Translations under genes and position numbers: made by a program
Part shown: positions 2,001 through 21,124 of the stretch, one piece after another
How positions within the stretch are numbered: the first letter of the stretch is position 1
How the letters are laid out: every line of letters begins with the position of its first letter
Assembly: GCA_000004695.1 (NCBI GenBank)
Contig: CM000153.2
Coordinates: 3,968,001-4,032,000 of the forward strand
Reading direction: 5' to 3'
DNA length: 64,000 nucleotides
Origin: Dictyostelium discoideum
Lineage: Eukaryota
The notes under the pieces: model-generated
The model's input: the letters and a program-made list of their open reading frames with translations, nothing else
Database searches by the model: none
Told to the model about the DNA's origin: nothing

Positions 2001-2862
2001 TTTAATAAATTATTGGAGGTAACAAAGACTTTTCTCAAGGAGTTTTTAATGTCGGTTCCTCAATAATTGAATAATAAAAAAAATAAAATTAAAGAATAAT
2101 ATAAAACAATTAAAAAAATAGATTTTTTATCTTTTTTGTAGTCAAAATTAACATATTTCTAATTTGATTTTAAAAACATTTACCAATATTAATAAATTAA
2201 CATAAAATAAACTATAAACAAATTCATTAGGAAAATATCCGTTATTTTATTTTTTCACAACTATAATTTTTTTTGTTAAATTAATTGCCTTTTTTTTTCG
2301 AATTTTTAATTGTATTATTACTTTTGATTAAAACATCTTTTTTGTCCAAACTTTTTTCTTAATCTTTTTTATTTTATTTGTGGTCGGCTTCGTGATTGAT
2401 GTTGATGACATATTTGAATTGTTTTATTTTATTTGTGTTTTGTCTTGGCTTATTTTTTGTAGGCATTTGTATTGCATAATATTTGTGGTGTTTTTGTTTT
2501 TTTTAAAAGTCTTTTTATTTGAAAAATGAAATAATCAAATAAAAGAGATTGTAGTTGTTGGTTCACTAAAATGGAGCCTATTTTTTTTTTTTTAATGACC
2601 TCATCCCAATTTATTTAATAGAGGAATTCAAAGCGAATTTAATGATTAAATAATGGTAAAATAAAAAATTTGTTAGGTAGTAGGGCCACTCACCCCCCTT
2701 TTATTTTAAGAGTTTTTCAAAAAAAAAAAATTTTAAGTAAAAGCAAGGTATTGGATCGATAACATTGAGATATATATATATGAAAAATATATGATCTAAT
2801 TCGGGATTGTCCTTTTGTTTTTTAGTTTTAATTTATGTAAATATAATATTTTTTCAACAAAT

Positions 2863-2935
2863 GCCCAGATAGCTCAGTCGGTAGAGCGCAAGGCTTTTAA
2901 CCTTGTGGTCGGGGGTTCGAGCCCCCCTTTGGGCG
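2863..2935 (+). tRNA. tRNA-Lys, anticodon UUU, 73 nt, no encoded CCA
   Basis: The sequence folds as a cloverleaf. Acceptor stem is GCCCAGA paired with TTTGGGC, D arm is GCTC-AGTCGGTA-GAGC, anticodon loop is CTTTTAA with anticodon TTT, T arm is GGGGG-TTCGAGC-CCCCC, and the discriminator is G. It is near-identical to eukaryotic tRNA-Lys(UUU). Confidence 0.95.
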
Positions 2936-2964
2936 AATTTTTCAAACCACTCAATATAAGTCGA

Positions 2965-14739: not shown

Positions 14740-14793
<54 letters not shown>

Positions 14794-15223
14794 CCAAAAA
14801 ATCAAAGGGGGCCCCCTTGGGTTAATTTGGCAACCAAAAAAAAAAATTTTTTTTTAAATTTTTTTTTTTAAAATCCAAGGGTTTTAAAAAAAACCAGTAA
14901 AAATTTTTGGCAAAAAGCCTTTTGAATTGGGGACCCTTTTTTTTTTTTTTTTTTCCCAATTTTTTAAATTTTTCAAATTTTTTTAATTTTTTAAAAACCC
15001 CCCCCCCCTCCTTTAGGGGGAATTTTTTTAAAAAAAAAAAAAAAAATTTTTTTTTTTCGGCCAATAACAAATCAAGGAAGGTTTTTTTTTTTTTTTTTTT
15101 AAAAAAAACAAAAATTTTTTTCTTTTTTTTTTTATTTTTTAGTTTATACATATGTATAAATTTTATATGGGAACTATATCAAATTTATTTTTATAACACT
15201 ATAAATATCCAACCACACTTTTA

Positions 15224-15272
<49 letters not shown>

Positions 15273-15687
15273 CAAACCACACACACCATTATCATTTTTT
15301 ATATAAATCTTTATTTGTTTTTTTATTTATTTAATTTTATTTTTTAAAATTTTATACACTTTATTTTTATTTTTGTTTTTTATTTGATTAATAGCTTATT
15401 TTTTTAATTTTTTTTTTTTTAATAAATATTATTACATAGCGTACAATAAAAACGATAAAAACTATTAAAATAATAATAATAAATAATAATAATAATACTA
15501 ATAAAAAAAACAATATTATTTAAACTTAAATTTTATTAGAAACAATAGCATAAACCTTTTGTATTATATAATTTTAGTAACAACAAATCAAACAATAAAA
15601 TATCAAAATCAAAATAAAAAAAGAAAAAACAGTTGTAATAATAAATAATATTGGTAATAATAGTAGAAATAATAATAAAAATTAGAA

Positions 15688-16516
15688 ATGGCAACAGATA
15701 ATGAAACATTAAATGATGTTTTAGGATACATTACAGATGTTTTATTATGTCTTTCAATTGTTGGTTCATTCTTTACAATTTTCACATTTATGATATTTCT
15801 TTTTCTTTTTCTTTTTCTCTCTCCCCTAATTATAGTTACTAATAGGCAATTCATTATAAAATATTAATAATAATAATAATTATATAGGTTATTTACAATC
15901 AGATTTACCAGTTTTCCTTGGTTTCTTTGTACCAGGTTTATTAACAGTTTGTGCAAATGCAGTAATTTTCTTCTTTATTGCAAGAGAAATTCATGATACT
16001 TTAAAGAATGCCCCAAGAACAGACAAAAAAGAAAAATCAAAAGAATTTAGAGTTTACTTTTCAATCTTTGTTTCAATTGGTTTATCATGGATCTTTGGTT
16101 TTATTATGACTTTCTTTAGTAGTGCCAGTGTTTTAGGTTATATCTTTTTAATTTTATTCTCTGTTACAACACCATTACAAGTAATTATCATTTATAAAAA
16201 AAAAAAAAAAAAAAAGAAAACAAAAAAGAAAACAAAACAAAACTAAATTAACACACTTGAAATTATTTTTATTATTTATAGGGTTTCTTAATTTTTATTT
16301 CATATTGTATAAATGATAAAGTTTTAGCAACTTATGCAAGAGGTTTCAGATCAATTGGTATTCCAATTTTCAACAGATGGGTCAATATTGATGATAGCAC
16401 CAAAAGAGGTAATACTTCTACAACTGGTTCTAATACTTCAACTGATAAGAGTGACAGATCTGAAAATATTTCATCTGATTCATCAATCTCTATCAAAGCA
16501 CCAAGAAATAATTAAA
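15688..16516 (+). pseudogene. Truncated paralog of the downstream cAMP-receptor-like GPCR, with an internal deletion of the TM2-TM4 block. Probable pseudogene.
   Basis: The N-terminus MATDNETLNDVLGYITDVLLCLSIVGSFFTIFTFM aligns with MPSQLLNTVLSYLTDILLSLSIVGSFLTIFTFML of the gene at 17122. The frame then runs into a TAA after about 24 junk codons, with no GT donor available. Homology resumes at 15888 (YLQSDLPVFLGFFVPG...EFRVYFSIFVSIG...GYIFLILFSV) and continues through a GTAATT..TATAG intron to a stop at 16516. Confidence 0.6.
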
Positions 16517-16681
16517 TTTGATTAGTTTGTTTATTAGAAGAAGAAAAAAAAAAAAAAAAAAAAACAAAAAAAAAAAAAAAAAAACCAAAAAAAAAAAAAA
16601 AAAAAACAAAATATAATATAATATAATATAATATATACACAAAATTTAAATCGATTTTTTAAAAAATAAATAAAATGTACC

Positions 16682-16718
<37 letters not shown>

Positions 16719-17121
16719 TAAATAATTTTATAATTAAATTATTTAATTGTTTTTTATTTTTTTTTATTCATTTTTTTTATTTTTTTTATTTTTTTTGTGA
16801 AAATATATATAATAGTAATAATTAGATTAATAGCAAAGATATACTAACACAAACACACATTCAAAAAAGAAACACCTTTTTGATTTTTTTTATTTTTTTT
16901 TTTTTTATTTATTTATTTTTATTTAATTAATTTTTTTTTTCATTAAAACAATTATAGATTTATATTTATATCACCACATCATACATCAAAATAATAATAA
17001 TAATACACACCCTTTTATTATTTAAAAGTTAAAAAAATCACTCTAAAATTAGAATTATAGTTTTATAAAAATTATAATCAAATATAATATTAGGTGAATT
17101 AAAAAAAATAAATAAATAAAA

Positions 17122-17598
17122 ATGCCATCACAATTATTAAATACAGTTTTATCATATTTAACTGATATATTATTAAGTTTATCAATAGTTGGGTCATTTT
17201 TAACAATATTTACATTTATGCTTTACCCAAAATTAAGGTCATATCCAATAAAATTGATAATATATTTATGTATGTCAATTGTGTTTTCATTATTCTTTTT
17301 TGAGATATCATTCAGGTCATCAAATTCGTTATTTTGTATACCAGCAGCAATTTTGGTTCATTACTTTTTTTTAGCAAATTTCTTTTGGACATTTTCAGTT
17401 TCTTTCAATTTCTTTCAAATGATTGTTAAAAGGAATAGAGATTCTGAATTTTATGAAAGATATTATCATTTAATTTCATGGGGAATTCCATTTATAATTA
17501 TAATTTTTTGTGCAGCATTTAAAAAATATGTTGATAGAGGTGGATTGTAAGTTAAATAATTAAAATTGGAAAAAAAAATTAATATTAAAATAATATTA

Positions 17599-17635
<37 letters not shown>

Positions 17636-18208
17636 TTGTTATTTAGAAGATCAATACTCTGTTTATTTTGGATTTTTCATGTAAATATTAAATATTTTAT
17701 TATTATCTTTTTTTTTTTTCTAAAATTTGTTTTTATTTTTTTATTTTTAAAAAAAAGGCCAGGAGTAATTATTGTTTGTTCAAATATATGTATTTATGTA
17801 TTTGTTGCAAAAGAAATTTATAAAACTTTAAGACATACACCAACACAAAAACGTCAAACGGTTAAAGAATTTAGAGTTTATTTTTCAATTTTTGTATCAA
17901 TTGGAAGTTCATGGATTTTTGGATTTATTTATATGTTTTCAGATTCAAATTCAATTATTGGATATATATTTTTAATTTTATTTTCAATTTCAACATCATT
18001 ACAAGGATTTTTTATTTTTATTTCATATTGTTTAAATTATAAAGTTTTTGCTCATTATTCAAGATCTTTCACACAATATGGGGTTTCATTCTTTAAAAGA
18101 TGGGAAAATTTGGATGGTGAAACAACACAATCTGGTCCAACTGGTACAACTGATTCATCATCAACAATGACTTCAACAACAACAACAACAAATGTTTATT
18201 CTGCATAA
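17122..18208 (+). CDS. cAMP receptor-like (CAR/Crl family) 7TM GPCR. Three exons: 17122..17546, 17636..17680, 17758..18208.
   Basis: FWTFSVSFNFFQMIVKRNRDSEFYERYYHLISWGIPFIIII aligns with Dictyostelium cAR1 [41 protein letters not shown]. Introns are GTAAGT..TTTAG and GTAAAT..AAAAG. Confidence 0.75.
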
Positions 18209-18272: not shown

Positions 18273-19355
18273 TTATTTAAGTAATATACACCAATCAATA
18301 TTTGGATGAATTGTTTTTGAATCATTTGAAGTTGAAATAGACATATGACCAGAAAAGAATTCTGTATCATATTCTGTACCATTATCATCGATTAAGACTG
18401 GAACAGAGAGGAAACCTTTTGGAACTTCATTAGTATCAACAAATATCCATTCTGTTGTTAAATTTCCACAAATACCTCTATCGTATTTTTCTTTATTATT
18501 GCCTACCCATTTACCATTGTTATTGAATACACAAAATGCAGTGATCCAACCTGATAAATATCTTGGACCAGAACCACCACCTACTACATGAACAATACAA
18601 TTCCACCAGCATGTATCAGGGTTACCATTAACAGAATCAATTATATTATCAATGATTGGATGAAGTAATTCAGTCCAAGAGTTCATACAATTTCCATCTG
18701 GATTACCATCGAAATCAAATTCTTTTAATTTTTCAATTCTATTTTTAATATCGATCCAATCATTAATTGTACCTAAAACTGTAACCTCTGGTAAAGAACA
18801 TCTTAGTGACATTTTATATTCAAAGAAATTTTTAACTGATGCCATCAATGCAATTGAAGCTGCCATTGTATCATTTGGAGTTGATGTTGTGAATGGTTTA
18901 TTAGCCCATTCTCTAATTGATGGATCTTTAATATTCTTTTCAATTTGTTTTGTCATTAAATTTGTAAGTTGTTCATAGTTTGCTGTCATTAATGTACCAC
19001 CACCAACTACTTCTAATTGTTTCTTTCCTTCGAAATCAACTATCTTGTTTCTTAACTTTTCAGAGTTTTCATTCAAATATAATGAAAATTGTACTAAAAT
19101 TGCAATCCAAACATCATCAGGTTTAATTGTTAAACCATGATGATTATTATATGCTTGAAGGGATGATAAAATAAAAGAATTTCCTCCAACACTTTTTGAA
19201 ATTCCTTCTTTAATACTTGTTCTTACTATTTTTCTCTCTTTTGGTTGAGTTTTAATAAAACTCATTGATGGATCTAAATATAATTGTTTATGATCAAAAT
19301 CCTTTCCTTTAAATTCATTAAATTCTACATCTGAAACCTTAAATGTTATTGACAT
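18273..19355 (-). CDS. Hypothetical conserved protein, 360 aa, single exon
   Basis: A clean ORF with coding-like composition. No motif recognised with confidence; it may belong to a DUF-type family shared with fungi. Confidence 0.6.
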   Translation of the reverse strand: MSITFKVSDVEFNEFKGKDFDHKQLYLDPSMSFIKTQPKERKIVRTSIKEGISKSVGGNSFILSSLQAYNNHHGLTIKPDDVWIAILVQFSLYLNENSEKLRNKIVDFEGKKQLEVVGGGTLMTANYEQLTNLMTKQIEKNIKDPSIREWANKPFTTSTPNDTMAASIALMASVKNFFEYKMSLRCSLPEVTVLGTINDWIDIKNRIEKLKEFDFDGNPDGNCMNSWTELLHPIIDNIIDSVNGNPDTCWWNCIVHVVGGGSGPRYLSGWITAFCVFNNNGKWVGNNKEKYDRGICGNLTTEWIFVDTNEVPKGFLSVPVLIDDNGTEYDTEFFSGHMSISTSNDSKTIHPNIDWCILLK

Positions 19356-19625: not shown

Positions 19626-19714
19626 AATTAATTAAAACAGTATTAAAAAAAAAAAAAAAAAAAAAATAAAAAAAAACTTTTTTTTTTTCTATTTTTATAC
19701 AAATTTCTTTATTA

Positions 19715-21124
19715 TTAAAAATTAATATCTAAACCTAATAAAGATCTTGCAGTTTCTAATTTTGAATTTGAATTTGTTAAATTTTTAATTCTTGACATTA
19801 ATTGTTTTGAAACTAAAGATAAATGTTTTGATAAGGTATCATTTTCATTAATTATTTCCCAATATTGATAAGAGAAAGTTTTAGCAGAATCTGTTAAATT
19901 ATTTTGAACTGGATGATTATGAAATAATTTCTTTGGAATTTGATTTTTCTTTGCATCTATAATTGTTAGAATAATACCTTGAGAAACTAAATCGATACGA
20001 TCAAATAAAATTTTAGAGAATTTTTCAATCTTTTGAATTTTCTCAGAAGGTTCTTCATTCTCATTTGTAATCATTTTAATTGTTTCTTTAACATCATCAT
20101 AATGACCACTTAATAAAATTGCCCAAACATCTTTTTCATGTTTAATAACTTTTGGTGAACGAAGTGATAATCTTGCCAATGTTATATACCACTCTGTCTT
20201 GATTTTATACATTTTACCTGAATTTTCAAATTTCAATACACAGCCCTCAATTAACTTCATTTGTTTTACAAGTTCAACTAATTCAATTGTACTTTTACAT
20301 GATTTAAATAACGATTGATCAGATGTTGTATCGATTAAATCCACCATTGGTATATTGAATGCTGTACATGTTTCTTGCAACTCTTTCCATTTTAAATATT
20401 CACCAGTGTGATTATTTCTAAGTGCTAAACATCTTAATCTCTCCTCACCATAGTATAATATAATTTGTTGTTTTGATGAACTATATTCAAATAGTGGTGT
20501 ATACCCTAACTGAATCCATTTCATTGAGAAATCATTATATTTAACTAACCCAATAGCTTCAATTCTATTCACATAATCATTTAACATTGTACCTAAATCA
20601 CTTATACCTTGTTTTGATCCCCAATAAACTTGACCTTTATTTAACATTGGTGCAATTAACGATCCATCAATTTTATCCATTAAAATATATGGTTCATTTA
20701 AATCAATAAATTCCTATTTTGGAAATAAAATAAAAAATTAAAATTTATTTAAAAAATATTTAAAATTAATTAATTATTATTTACTACTTACAGCTTTAAC
20801 TTCTTTAAATTCATTTATATTAAAAAATTTATGTAATTTTCTACATAATAATTTTTCTGTTTTTAAATCAAATATTAAACCTCTACATTCTCTTCTACAA
20901 CGTAAAAGGAATTGTTTCTTTTGATCTGGTTCTGATAATGGATCTGGAAATGATTCATCTGATAATGAATCATAATTAAAAACTATTGTATCATCTCTAA
21001 TTGATTCTCTAAATCCTGATACTCCTTTTATACATTCTCTTACATCATCTATTGTTAACCCTAAAGGATAATAATTTTTATTTCTTTCTCTATAAATTTC
21101 TTCTTCTGTTTGTTTTAATTCCAT
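19715..21124 (-). CDS. T4 Rnl1-family RNA ligase-like protein. Two exons, 21124..20792 and 20713..19715, about 443 aa.
   Basis: Nucleotidyltransferase motif I is ILMDKIDGSLI (T4 Rnl1 ILTKEDGSLV). Motifs IV-V are LIEGCVLKFENSGKMYKIKTEWY (T4 Rnl1 [20 protein letters not shown]). The intron is GTAAGT..AAATAG, 78 nt. Confidence 0.75.

What the first reader, a model, noticed from the sequence alone, without database searches (positions are those of the whole stretch)
15688..18208. Tandem cAMP-receptor-like GPCR duplicates; upstream copy lost its TM2-TM4 block; differing intron positions
The two genes share the N-terminus, TM1 and the C-terminal half. The upstream copy replaces the segment homologous to 17220-17550 (LYPKLR...YVDRGG) with about 100 nt of low-complexity sequence that hits a TAA and has no GT donor. 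It is most likely a pseudogene, or possibly a neo-gene using a non-canonical splice. The intact copy has an intron at GFFM|PG that the damaged copy lacks. The damaged copy has an intron at PLQ|GFL that the intact copy lacks. This indicates intron gain or loss after duplication.
Basis: seen in the sequence. Interest (0 to 1): 0.55.

Follow-up and report, generated by a model that had tools for sequence, protein, structure and literature searches.

The report
Deletion-broken paralogue next to Dictyostelium lrlA
Two neighbouring receptor genes of the social amoeba Dictyostelium discoideum are old duplicates: the downstream one is the known gene lrlA, and the upstream one lost three of its seven membrane helices to a roughly 450-base deletion in the reference-strain lineage, a truncation already reported in the literature.

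Summary
The downstream gene (17122-18208, 3 exons, 306 aa) is exactly LrlA (Q54MC6), the "latrophilin receptor-like" family-2 (secretin/adhesion-type) GPCR of D. discoideum AX4. It is not a cAR/Crl receptor.

The upstream gene keeps TM1 and TM5-TM7 but lacks TM2-TM4. Syntenic loci from four other D. discoideum / D. cf. discoideum assemblies and three sister species show a clean deletion of about 444-456 bp with a 4-nt TTTC overlap at the junction. It removed:
- codons 38-144;
- one whole intron;
- the GT donor of the next intron.

The "100 nt of low complexity" is the leftover 3' end of that intron. It is read in frame to a TAA. An independent assembly of the same genotype has the identical junction.

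The broken copy is the slowly evolving, pan-dictyostelid orthologue. lrlA is the fast-evolving group-4 duplicate. With outgroups, the PLQ|GF intron is ancestral and was lost in lrlA, and the FFM|PG intron is an lrlA-lineage gain.

Hall et al. 2022/23 (PMC10445921) already report a truncated four-TM LrlA duplicate, DDB_G0286109; that this is the gene seen here is inferred by elimination. It is most likely a recent, lineage-specific pseudogene. What appears new: the exact lesion, its absence from other strains, and the polarity of the intron changes.

The parts
15688..15798 (+). Gene A (lrlA paralogue, probably DDB_G0286109): retained 5' part of exon 1, codons 1-37 (MATDNETLNDVLGYITDVLLCLSIVGSFFTIFTFMIF), that is the short N-terminus plus TM1
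   Evidence: 100% identical to the first 108 nt of the intact gene in strains ACTFIR, ACTFIW and ACTFIY. Hydropathy puts TM1 at about residues 9-38.
15796..15799 (+). Deletion junction: TTTC, present at both edges of the missing segment in intact alleles (4-nt microhomology)
   Evidence: blastn: window 14769-15799 = L001 3083-4112 and window 15796-16247 = L001 4569-5017. The window therefore lacks L001 4113-4568 (456 bp; 444 bp relative to L002).
15800..15887 (+). Residual 3' part of intron b (T/C tract, TACTAAT branch-like motif, AAT repeats, AG acceptor). It is now read in frame from exon 1 and ends at TAA 15865-15867.
   Evidence: Aligns to the 3' end of the GF|C intron of the intact alleles. 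The 59-aa ORF is 15688-15867.
15749..15769 (+). The only two GT dinucleotides in phase with the 15888 acceptor (15749 gtcttt, 15764 gttcat). Both lie inside the TM1 coding sequence. The second is used by NCBI model KAM9942216.1 (200 aa).
   Evidence: P0064 equals the 15688-15763 + 15888... model.
15888..16180 (+). Gene A exon encoding the end of ECL2, TM5, ICL3, TM6 and most of TM7 ((C)YLQSDL...TTPLQ). It starts in phase 1, so the first complete codon is at 15890.
   Evidence: It differs from strain ACTFIR at 3 of 294 nt.
16181..16281 (+). Gene A intron c (gtaatt...atag, phase 0, at PLQ|GF): the ancestral intron, absent from lrlA
   Evidence: Present at the same position and phase in D. citrinum, D. 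firmibasis, both D. purpureum paralogues, T. lacteum and C. fasciculata.
16282..16515 (+). Gene A last exon (end of TM7 and the C-terminal tail; stop TAA 16513-16515)
17122..17546 (+). lrlA exon 1 (N-terminus, TM1-TM4, start of ECL2)
   Evidence: The whole product is identical to Q54MC6 / XP_637908.1.
17636..17680 (+). lrlA 45-nt mini-exon ((F)CYLEDQYSVYFGFF(M)). It lies between the shared intron b (17547-17635, phase 2) and the lrlA-specific intron (17681-17757, phase 2, at FFM|PG).
   Evidence: The same structure occurs in D. citrinum and strain ACTFIR.
17758..18208 (+). lrlA exon 3 (TM5-TM7 and the Ser/Thr-rich tail; stop TAA 18206-18208). There is no intron at SLQ|GF.

Best explanation
**What the two genes are.**
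- The pair is lrlA (downstream) and its group-4 paralogue (upstream, almost certainly dictyBase DDB_G0286109).
- Both are family-2 (7tm_2) seven-helix receptors with almost no extracellular N-terminus.

**The lesion.** In the lineage of the reference strain, one genomic deletion of about 450 bp removed:
- codons 38-144 of the upstream gene (ICL1, TM2, TM3 with its conserved Cys, TM4 and most of ECL2);
- the whole IPS|G intron;
- the GT donor and 5' T-tract of the next intron.

The deletion ran between a TTTC in exon 1 and a TTTC in the T/C tract of the GF|C intron. This suggests slippage or microhomology-mediated joining.

**What is left.** The surviving 3' end of the GF|C intron is fused to exon 1, so translation from the ATG runs 22 codons into intron sequence and stops. 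TM5-TM7 can only be reached through a weak cryptic donor inside TM1.

**Why it cannot be a working GPCR.** Either way the helix bundle is incomplete. Removing an odd number of helices would also put TM5-TM7, the basic ICL3 loop and the C-tail in the wrong orientation.

**Conclusion.**
- The remnant is most likely a young pseudogene. The remaining exons carry no further lesions because the deletion is recent.
- The reference-strain lineage therefore lacks a working copy of the conserved pan-dictyostelid receptor and retains only the divergent duplicate, lrlA.

**Shown:** paralogy, the extent of the lesion, the direction (deletion), confirmation in an independent assembly, intact alleles elsewhere, and intron polarity.

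**Inferred:** the deletion mechanism, loss of function, and the identity with DDB_G0286109.
For: **Identity of lrlA.** The product is an exact match to Q54MC6 / XP_637908.1. Pfam 7tm_2 scores 91.8 bits.

**Deletion mapping.**
- The deletion was mapped against the syntenic loci L001 and L002.
- The junction and all coding sequence are identical in an independent assembly, GCA_054883475.1.

**Intact alleles elsewhere.**
- The gene is intact at DNA level in four other D. discoideum / cf. discoideum assemblies.
- It is also intact in D. citrinum, D. firmibasis and D. purpureum.
- All other dictyostelid orthologues examined keep TM2-TM4. The window state is therefore derived, a deletion.

**Selection and rate.**
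- The intact gene is under purifying selection, with dN/dS 0.14-0.30.
- It is 72-75% identical to T. lacteum / C. fasciculata proteins, against 55-60% for LrlA.

**Reading frame and helices.**
- The ORF stops at 15865-15867.
- Only two in-phase GTs exist, gtcttt and gttcat. All 23 donors mapped in this family begin gtaag, gtatg, gtaaa, gtaat or gttag.
- Hydropathy shows 7 helices in LrlA and intact A. At best TM1 plus TM5-7 remain in any product of the window copy.
- The remnant matches only profile positions 156-250 of 7tm_2.

**Age of the lesion.** The remnant differs from strain ACTFIR by only 3 synonymous and 3 non-synonymous changes in 211 codons.

Against: - No transcript data could be examined, so use of a cryptic splice site is not excluded.
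- The 174-codon 3' reading frame and its intron c splice sites are still intact.
- One automated annotation (KAM9942216.1) and, according to PMC10445921, the reference annotation treat the locus as a protein-coding gene with four TM segments.
- I could not retrieve the AX4 protein model, so I could not see which junction it uses.
- The strains with the intact gene differ from the window by 2-6% in neighbouring coding DNA. It is therefore unknown how widespread the deletion is among close relatives of NC4/AX4.
Confidence: 0.8

Rival explanations
1. Truncated but expressed gene. A cryptic donor inside TM1 (15763|gttcat) is spliced to the 15888 acceptor. This gives a 200-aa, roughly four-helix protein with a new or modulatory role, for example pairing with LrlA as truncated GPCR variants do in animals.
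For: - The junction is in phase and yields an open 200-codon frame identical to NCBI model KAM9942216.1.
- The downstream exons and intron c are undamaged.
- PMC10445921 lists the gene as a four-TM protein.
- Hydropathy gives about four hydrophobic segments for this model.
Against: - The donor gttcat matches none of the 23 donors mapped in this gene family beyond the first three bases gtt, which it shares only with the gttagt donor of intron a.
- Splicing there removes half of TM1.
- Deleting three helices inverts the topology of TM5-TM7 relative to the positive-inside ICL3 (inference from standard membrane-protein topology rules).
- The 200-aa sequence occurs in the 15-billion-protein collection only as that single genome annotation and in no transcript-derived or Logan contig.
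- The annotation is automated and does not show transcript support.
Confidence: 0.12
2. Assembly artefact: the TM2-TM4 block is present in the organism but collapsed or lost in the reference sequence.
For: The window does contain a low-quality stretch only about 600 bp upstream, at 14781-15114. The missing block is flanked by a T-tract.
Against: - An independent chromosome-level assembly of the same genotype has exactly the same junction, with 213 nt across it identical.
- Sequence on both sides of the junction is clean and matches other strains at 99-100%.
- The published analysis of AX4 also found the gene truncated.
Confidence: 0.02
3. One reading: two cAMP-receptor-like (Crl) duplicates, of which the upstream one is a redundant new copy that decayed after duplication.
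For: LrlA and intact A exceed the gathering threshold of Pfam Dicty_CAR (63-69 bits). The genes are adjacent.
Against: - 7tm_2 scores higher in every family member tested.
- UniProt and published phylogeny assign LrlA to family 2.
- The duplication predates the D. purpureum split, and both copies persisted under purifying selection.
- The upstream copy is the conserved one and is intact in other strains.
Confidence: 0.04

Closest known systems
DDB_G0286109, the truncated LrlA duplicate of D. discoideum reported by Hall, Kelly, Schaap and Schilde (Open Res Europe 2022/23, PMC10445921)
   Same: - It is a truncated paralogue of LrlA that arose by a group-4 duplication and has four TM segments left.
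- It is the only such gene reported for D. discoideum.
- The window's upstream gene has exactly TM1 plus TM5-7.
   Different: - The paper treats truncation as the D. discoideum state and gives no lesion.
- Here the lesion is mapped as a roughly 450-bp exon-to-intron deletion with a lost splice donor.
- It is shown to be absent from four other D. discoideum / cf. discoideum assemblies.
- The truncated gene is shown to be the slowly evolving ancestral-type copy.
- The identity of the window gene with DDB_G0286109 is inferred by elimination. It was not checked against the dictyBase record.
LrlA (latrophilin receptor-like protein A, Q54MC6), family-2 GPCR
   Same: - The downstream gene is this protein, residue for residue.
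- The upstream gene is its paralogue, 57% identical over TM5 to the tail.
   Different: - LrlA is the derived, faster-evolving copy.
- It lost the ancestral PLQ|GF intron and gained the FFM|PG intron.
- Despite the name, it has no latrophilin-type GAIN/GPS or lectin domains.
Dictyostelium cAR/Crl receptors (Pfam Dicty_CAR)
   Same: - They share the seven-helix fold and a short N-terminus.
- Profile hits overlap, and both profiles pass threshold.
   Different: - The Dicty_CAR score is lower than the 7tm_2 score.
- Published trees place LrlA with family 2.
- There is no evidence of cAMP binding.
Natural deletion alleles of GPCR genes such as human CCR5-delta32 (from general knowledge, not tested here)
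   Same: - A short genomic deletion flanked by a small direct repeat.
- It truncates a seven-helix receptor.
- It is present in some lineages of a species and absent in others.
   Different: - The lesion here spans an exon-intron boundary and removes three helices plus a splice donor, rather than causing a frameshift.
- Population frequency and phenotype are unknown.

Membership tests
GPCR family 2 (Pfam 7tm_2, secretin/adhesion type) | Significant match to PF00002 over the whole seven-helix core, above the gathering score | tested here: met
   - LrlA: 91.8 bits, profile positions 3-250 of 250.
- Intact allele of gene A (P0074): 88.7 bits, positions 4-250.
- Window copy of gene A: 26 bits, positions 156-250 only, so it matches the family through TM5-7 alone.
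GPCR family 2 (Pfam 7tm_2, secretin/adhesion type) | Seven hydrophobic transmembrane segments | tested here: not met
   This verdict is for the window copy of gene A. Every possible product has TM1 (or half of it) plus TM5-7, or TM1 only. LrlA and intact A each show seven segments.
GPCR family 2 (Pfam 7tm_2, secretin/adhesion type) | Conserved Cys pair linking the top of TM3 to ECL2 | tested here: not met
   - Both Cys residues (FC-IPS and GF-C-YL) are present in LrlA and in all intact orthologues.
- In the window copy of A the TM3 Cys lies in the deleted block, and the ECL2 Cys codon has lost its first base along with the upstream exon.
- That these two Cys form the disulfide is assumed from general family-2 knowledge.
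Adhesion GPCR / latrophilin subfamily | Long extracellular N-terminus with a GAIN domain and GPS autoproteolysis motif (or a hormone-binding HRM domain for secretin receptors) | tested here: not met
   Only about 8-10 residues precede TM1. There is no Pfam hit other than seven-helix families. PMC10445921 likewise reports no N-terminal or GAIN domains in amoebozoan family-2 receptors.
   Dicty_CAR passes its threshold (63-71 bits) but scores below 7tm_2 in LrlA, intact A and the T. lacteum orthologue. Published phylogeny and UniProt place LrlA in family 2. I did not build a tree that includes the cAR/Crl sequences.
Duplicated-gene pseudogene (non-processed) | Clear homology to a functional gene, plus a lesion that removes essential parts or the reading frame | tested here: met
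   A 444-456-bp deletion removes TM2-TM4 and a splice donor. There is an in-frame TAA 22 codons after the junction.
Duplicated-gene pseudogene (non-processed) | No functional transcript or protein | not testable with these tools
   No RNA-seq mapping was available. Exact look-ups of the 59-aa ORF and of nine alternative GT-AG models found nothing on record, which is uninformative.
Duplicated-gene pseudogene (non-processed) | Relaxed selection or accumulated secondary lesions | tested here: inconclusive
   There are no further stops, frameshifts or splice-site losses. Against strain ACTFIR there are 3 synonymous and 3 non-synonymous differences in 211 codons, too few to judge. This fits a recent event.

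The most novel reading that the evidence does not exclude
The remnant is not dead. In the AX4/NC4 lineage a cryptic splice inside TM1 produces a 200-aa four-helix protein (half of TM1 plus TM5-TM7) that acts as a strain-specific modulator, for example a dominant-negative partner of LrlA. The reference strain would then differ from wild isolates both by loss of the ancestral family-2 receptor and by gain of an interfering fragment.
Probability: 0.07. Interest if true: 0.5.

Novelty: already known. Interest (0 to 1): 0.27.

Why it matters
D. discoideum is usually described as having a single family-2 GPCR, lrlA (for example PMC5821085). This locus shows that the statement reflects the reference-strain lineage. 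Other D. discoideum-labelled isolates and every other dictyostelid examined keep a second, more conserved receptor. In AX4 that receptor is broken by a recent deletion.

Two practical consequences follow:
- Anyone studying family-2 signalling in the laboratory strain is working in a probable natural null background for the ancestral gene.
- Anyone comparing GPCR repertoires across species should not count the truncation as a species trait.

The locus is also a small, cleanly polarised example of intron loss, intron gain and a 2-nt intron shift after gene duplication. None of this is surprising in kind.

Tried and rejected
1. **Enumerating splice combinations.** I enumerated every GT/GC/AT donor and AG/AC acceptor combination that joins exon 1 to the 3' exons in frame. 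Only two GT-AG donors qualify, and both are weak.

2. **Retrieving the AX4 protein model of the truncated gene.**
   - A second homology search with the C-terminal half returned only the ACTFIT model. It also missed known 95%-identical orthologues, so it is not exhaustive.
   - Exact look-ups of nine alternative GT-AG models and of the 59-aa ORF were all negative.
   - A look-up of contigs encoding the 59-aa ORF, meant to find transcript-derived contigs, found nothing.

3. **Possible independent lesions in other strains.** The short annotated proteins in strains ACTFIY (219 aa) and ACTFIZ (265 aa) might have marked independent lesions. They do not. The DNA is intact, and the annotators split the gene because intron a holds a long (AAT)n tract.

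4. **Assembly artefact.** Rejected, because an independent assembly has the same junction.

5. **Insertion in the other strains rather than deletion here.** Rejected, because all outgroups have TM2-TM4.

6. **Translocation of the missing block elsewhere in the window.** Not found.

7. **Literature and supplement searches.** I looked for strain identities of the new assemblies and for expression data on DDB_G0286109. These gave nothing usable.

8. **tRNA and tandem-repeat scans.** Scans around the locus showed nothing relevant.
Full report
**1. What is in the sequence**

The region is extremely AT-rich Dictyostelium DNA.

Gene B:
- It reads from ATG 17122 through exons 17122-17546, 17636-17680 and 17758-18208.
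- The introns are canonical: gtaagt...ag and gtaaat...ag.
- The product is 306 aa.

Gene A:
- It starts at ATG 15688 and encodes a short N-terminus and TM1.
- After ...FTFMIF it continues into a T/C-rich tract and stops at TAA 15865-15867, giving a 59-aa ORF.
- From an AG acceptor at 15886-15887 a phase-1 exon runs 15888-16180.
- It is followed by intron 16181-16281 (gtaatt...atag) and a last exon 16282-16515.

Evidence that A and B are paralogues:
- They are 57% identical over 139 aa (E = 2e-55) from ECL2 to the proximal C-tail.
- They are 65% identical over 26 aa at the N-terminus/TM1.
- At DNA level the shared blocks are 71-76% identical.
- Residues 35-142 of B (TM2-TM4) have no counterpart in A or elsewhere in the window.

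Hydropathy gives seven segments in B. Any product of A has TM1 plus TM5-7 at most.

**2. Identity**

- Gene B is, residue for residue, LrlA, 'latrophilin receptor-like protein A' of D. discoideum AX4 (Q54MC6, XP_637908.1, EAL64397.1).
- Its best Pfam match is 7tm_2, the secretin family (91.8 bits). Dicty_CAR scores lower (63.1 bits).
- There is no GAIN, GPS or hormone-binding domain, and only about 8 residues precede TM1.
- The literature treats lrlA as the family-2 GPCR of D. discoideum (PMC5821085; PMC10445921).
- The label 'cAMP-receptor-like' is thus imprecise.

**3. The lesion in gene A**

*Syntenic loci.* These were fetched from other assemblies. All share the order: 400-aa gene (-), gene A, lrlA, DUF4419 gene (-), T4-type RNA ligase gene (-).

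*Intact allele.* In D. discoideum strains with locus-tag prefixes ACTFIR and ACTFIW, gene A encodes an intact 319-aa seven-helix protein (P0074) from four exons.

*Breakpoints (blastn).*
- Window 14769-15799 equals L001 3083-4112.
- Window 15796-16247 equals L001 4569-5017.
- The window therefore lacks 456 bp relative to L001 (444 bp relative to L002), with TTTC present at both edges.

*The missing segment comprises:*
- the rest of exon 1 from codon 38;
- the whole first intron (IPS|G, phase 1);
- all of exon 2;
- the gtaagt donor and 5' T-tract of the second intron (GF|C).

*What remains.* The roughly 90 nt of 'low complexity' at 15800-15887 is simply the surviving 3' part of that second intron. 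It holds a T/C tract, a TACTAAT motif, AAT repeats and the AG.

*Direction of change.*
- TM2-TM4 are present in every orthologue from D. citrinum, D. firmibasis, D. purpureum, Tieghemostelium, Cavenderia, Heterostelium, Acytostelium and Polysphondylium.
- The window state is therefore a deletion, not an insertion elsewhere.

*Mechanism.* The TTTC overlap next to a long T/C tract suggests slippage or microhomology-mediated joining. This is an inference.

**4. Is it real?**

- Assembly GCA_054883475.1 (prefix ACTFIT) is 100% identical to the window in all coding DNA compared. It differs only in homopolymer lengths and one evidently low-quality stretch of the window.
- It is therefore an independent assembly of the same genotype, and it carries exactly the same junction.
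- The published AX4-based survey also found a truncated four-TM LrlA duplicate.
- An assembly artefact is excluded for practical purposes.

**5. How widespread?**

- Gene A is intact at DNA level in ACTFIR, ACTFIW, ACTFIY and ACTFIZ.
- The last two are annotated as two short genes only because intron a contains a long (AAT)n tract.
- These isolates differ from the window by 2.1-5.6% in the neighbouring DUF4419 coding sequence. They are not close relatives of the reference strain.
- What can be said is that the deletion is derived within what NCBI labels D. discoideum.
- Whether it is confined to NC4 and its axenic derivatives is open.

**6. Which copy is which?**

*Tree and conservation.*
- In an NJ tree the A-type proteins of D. 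discoideum, D. citrinum, D. firmibasis and D. purpureum (DICPUDRAFT_95036) form a 100%-supported clade.
- LrlA groups with DICPUDRAFT_151051 at 84%.
- A-type proteins are 72-75% identical to the T. lacteum and C. fasciculata proteins. LrlA is only 55-60% identical.
- The TM5-ICL3-TM6 stretch of A is almost invariant across Dictyostelia.
- Intact A evolves under purifying selection, with dN/dS 0.14-0.30 between species.
- The broken gene is therefore the conserved, ancestral-type orthologue, and lrlA is the divergent group-4 duplicate.

*Recency of the deletion.*
- The remnant in the window shows no further stops, frameshifts or splice-site losses.
- It differs from ACTFIR by 3 synonymous and 3 non-synonymous changes in 211 codons.
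- This fits a recent deletion.

**7. Introns**

Exon maps that reproduce each annotated protein exactly, together with the splice sites, show the following:

| Intron | Where it occurs | Inference |
|---|---|---|
| c (PLQ\|GF, phase 0) | All A-type genes, both D. purpureum paralogues, T. lacteum and C. fasciculata | Ancestral; lost in lrlA after the D. purpureum split |
| FFM\|PG (phase 2) | Only lrlA of D. discoideum and D. citrinum by exon map; visible in D. firmibasis DNA | Gained in the lrlA lineage |
| a (IPS\|G, phase 1) | Only the A gene of D. discoideum, D. citrinum and D. firmibasis | Gained in that lineage |
| b (shared) | Phase 2 in the Phe codon in lrlA, D. purpureum, T. lacteum and C. 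fasciculata; phase 1 in the next (Cys) codon in the D. discoideum-complex A gene | A 2-nt shift in the D. discoideum-complex A gene |

**8. What the remnant can make**

*Translation.* Translation from ATG 15688 gives a 59-aa peptide: TM1 plus a hydrophobic intron-encoded tail.

*Possible donors.*
- Six GTs lie between the ATG and the acceptor.
- Only 15749 (gtcttt) and 15764 (gttcat) are in phase with 15888.
- Both lie within TM1 and resemble none of the 23 donors mapped in this family, which begin gtaag, gtatg, gtaaa, gtaat or gttag.

*The 200-aa model.*
- NCBI's automated model for ACTFIT (KAM9942216.1, 200 aa) uses 15764.
- Such a protein would retain half of TM1 and TM5-7.
- It matches 7tm_2 only over profile positions 157-250.

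*Topology.* Removing three helices would force TM5-7, the basic ICL3 (KNAPRTDKKEKSKEFR) and the C-tail into inverted topology, or leave TM1 uninserted. This follows from standard topology rules.

*Verdict.* A working GPCR is excluded. A residual non-receptor role is unlikely but untested, because no transcript data could be examined.

**9. Comparison with what is known**

- That is this gene, by elimination. It is the only truncated LrlA paralogue found, and its helix count matches.
- The core of the finding is therefore already known.
- I did not find the following in the literature I could search:
  - the exact deletion;
  - the loss of the splice donor;
  - the absence of the lesion from other isolates;
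  - the recognition that the conserved copy is the broken one;
  - the intron polarity.

**10. Verdict**

- The feature is real, correctly observed and sensibly interpreted. It is ordinary in kind and already reported in outline.
- It is a young, lineage-specific pseudogene of a conserved family-2 GPCR sitting next to its paralogue lrlA.
- Interest is low to moderate. Its main practical value is as a caveat about the reference strain.

Noticed in passing
window 14781-15114: About 80 of the 130 differences between the window and the otherwise identical ACTFIT assembly cluster in this stretch. The window version looks 'smeared' into runs (GGGGGCCCCC against GGGTGCACC; C11TCC...GGGGG against CCACAACCCATTC...GATGG). 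It is only 78-79% identical to other strains, whereas the ACTFIT version is 93-94% identical. This is probably a low-quality stretch of the reference sequence and not biology.
   Followed up: yes
L004 2686-2928 and L005 2702-3070 (intron a of gene A in strains ACTFIY and ACTFIZ); L001 4233-4324: The (AAT)n tract inside intron a varies greatly between isolates. The intron is 92 nt in ACTFIR, about 240 nt in ACTFIY and about 370 nt in ACTFIZ. In the two long cases the automated annotation split an intact gene into two short 'genes' (122 + 219 aa and 107 + 265 aa).
   Followed up: yes
L001 4525/4660, L011 4212/4398 and L006 4100/4262, compared with window 17546/17636, L007 1496/1560, L009 1958/2036 and L010 1934/2016: The intron shared by both paralogues lies 2 nt further 3' in the D. 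discoideum / citrinum / firmibasis A gene (phase 1, T|GT of the Cys codon). In lrlA, both D. purpureum genes, T. lacteum and C. fasciculata it is phase 2, TT|Y of the Phe codon. This is an apparent 2-nt intron slide.
   Followed up: partly
L006 5845-6057 (D. firmibasis lrlA, RB653_000469): The annotated 286-aa model skips the mini-exon (CYLKDQYSVYFGFF...) that is visible in the DNA between a gtaggt donor and a gtaaat donor. The model is probably about 15 residues short, unless the exon is out of frame in that species.
   Followed up: partly
window 18273-19355 (-) and about 19700-21100 (-): The downstream neighbours are a 360-aa DUF4419 protein and a T4 Rnl1-type RNA ligase homologue (Pfam RNA_lig_T4_1). 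Both are syntenic in all Dictyostelium loci fetched.
   Followed up: no
gene A against lrlA coding sequences (L001, L011, window): Synonymous divergence between D. discoideum and D. citrinum is much lower in gene A (dS 0.15) than in the adjacent lrlA (dS 0.37). The cause was not examined; it could be codon-usage constraint, different mutation or conversion history, or noise.
   Followed up: no
window 2862-2936 (+): This is the single tRNA gene in the window, tRNA-Lys(UUU). It is unrelated to the finding.
   Followed up: no
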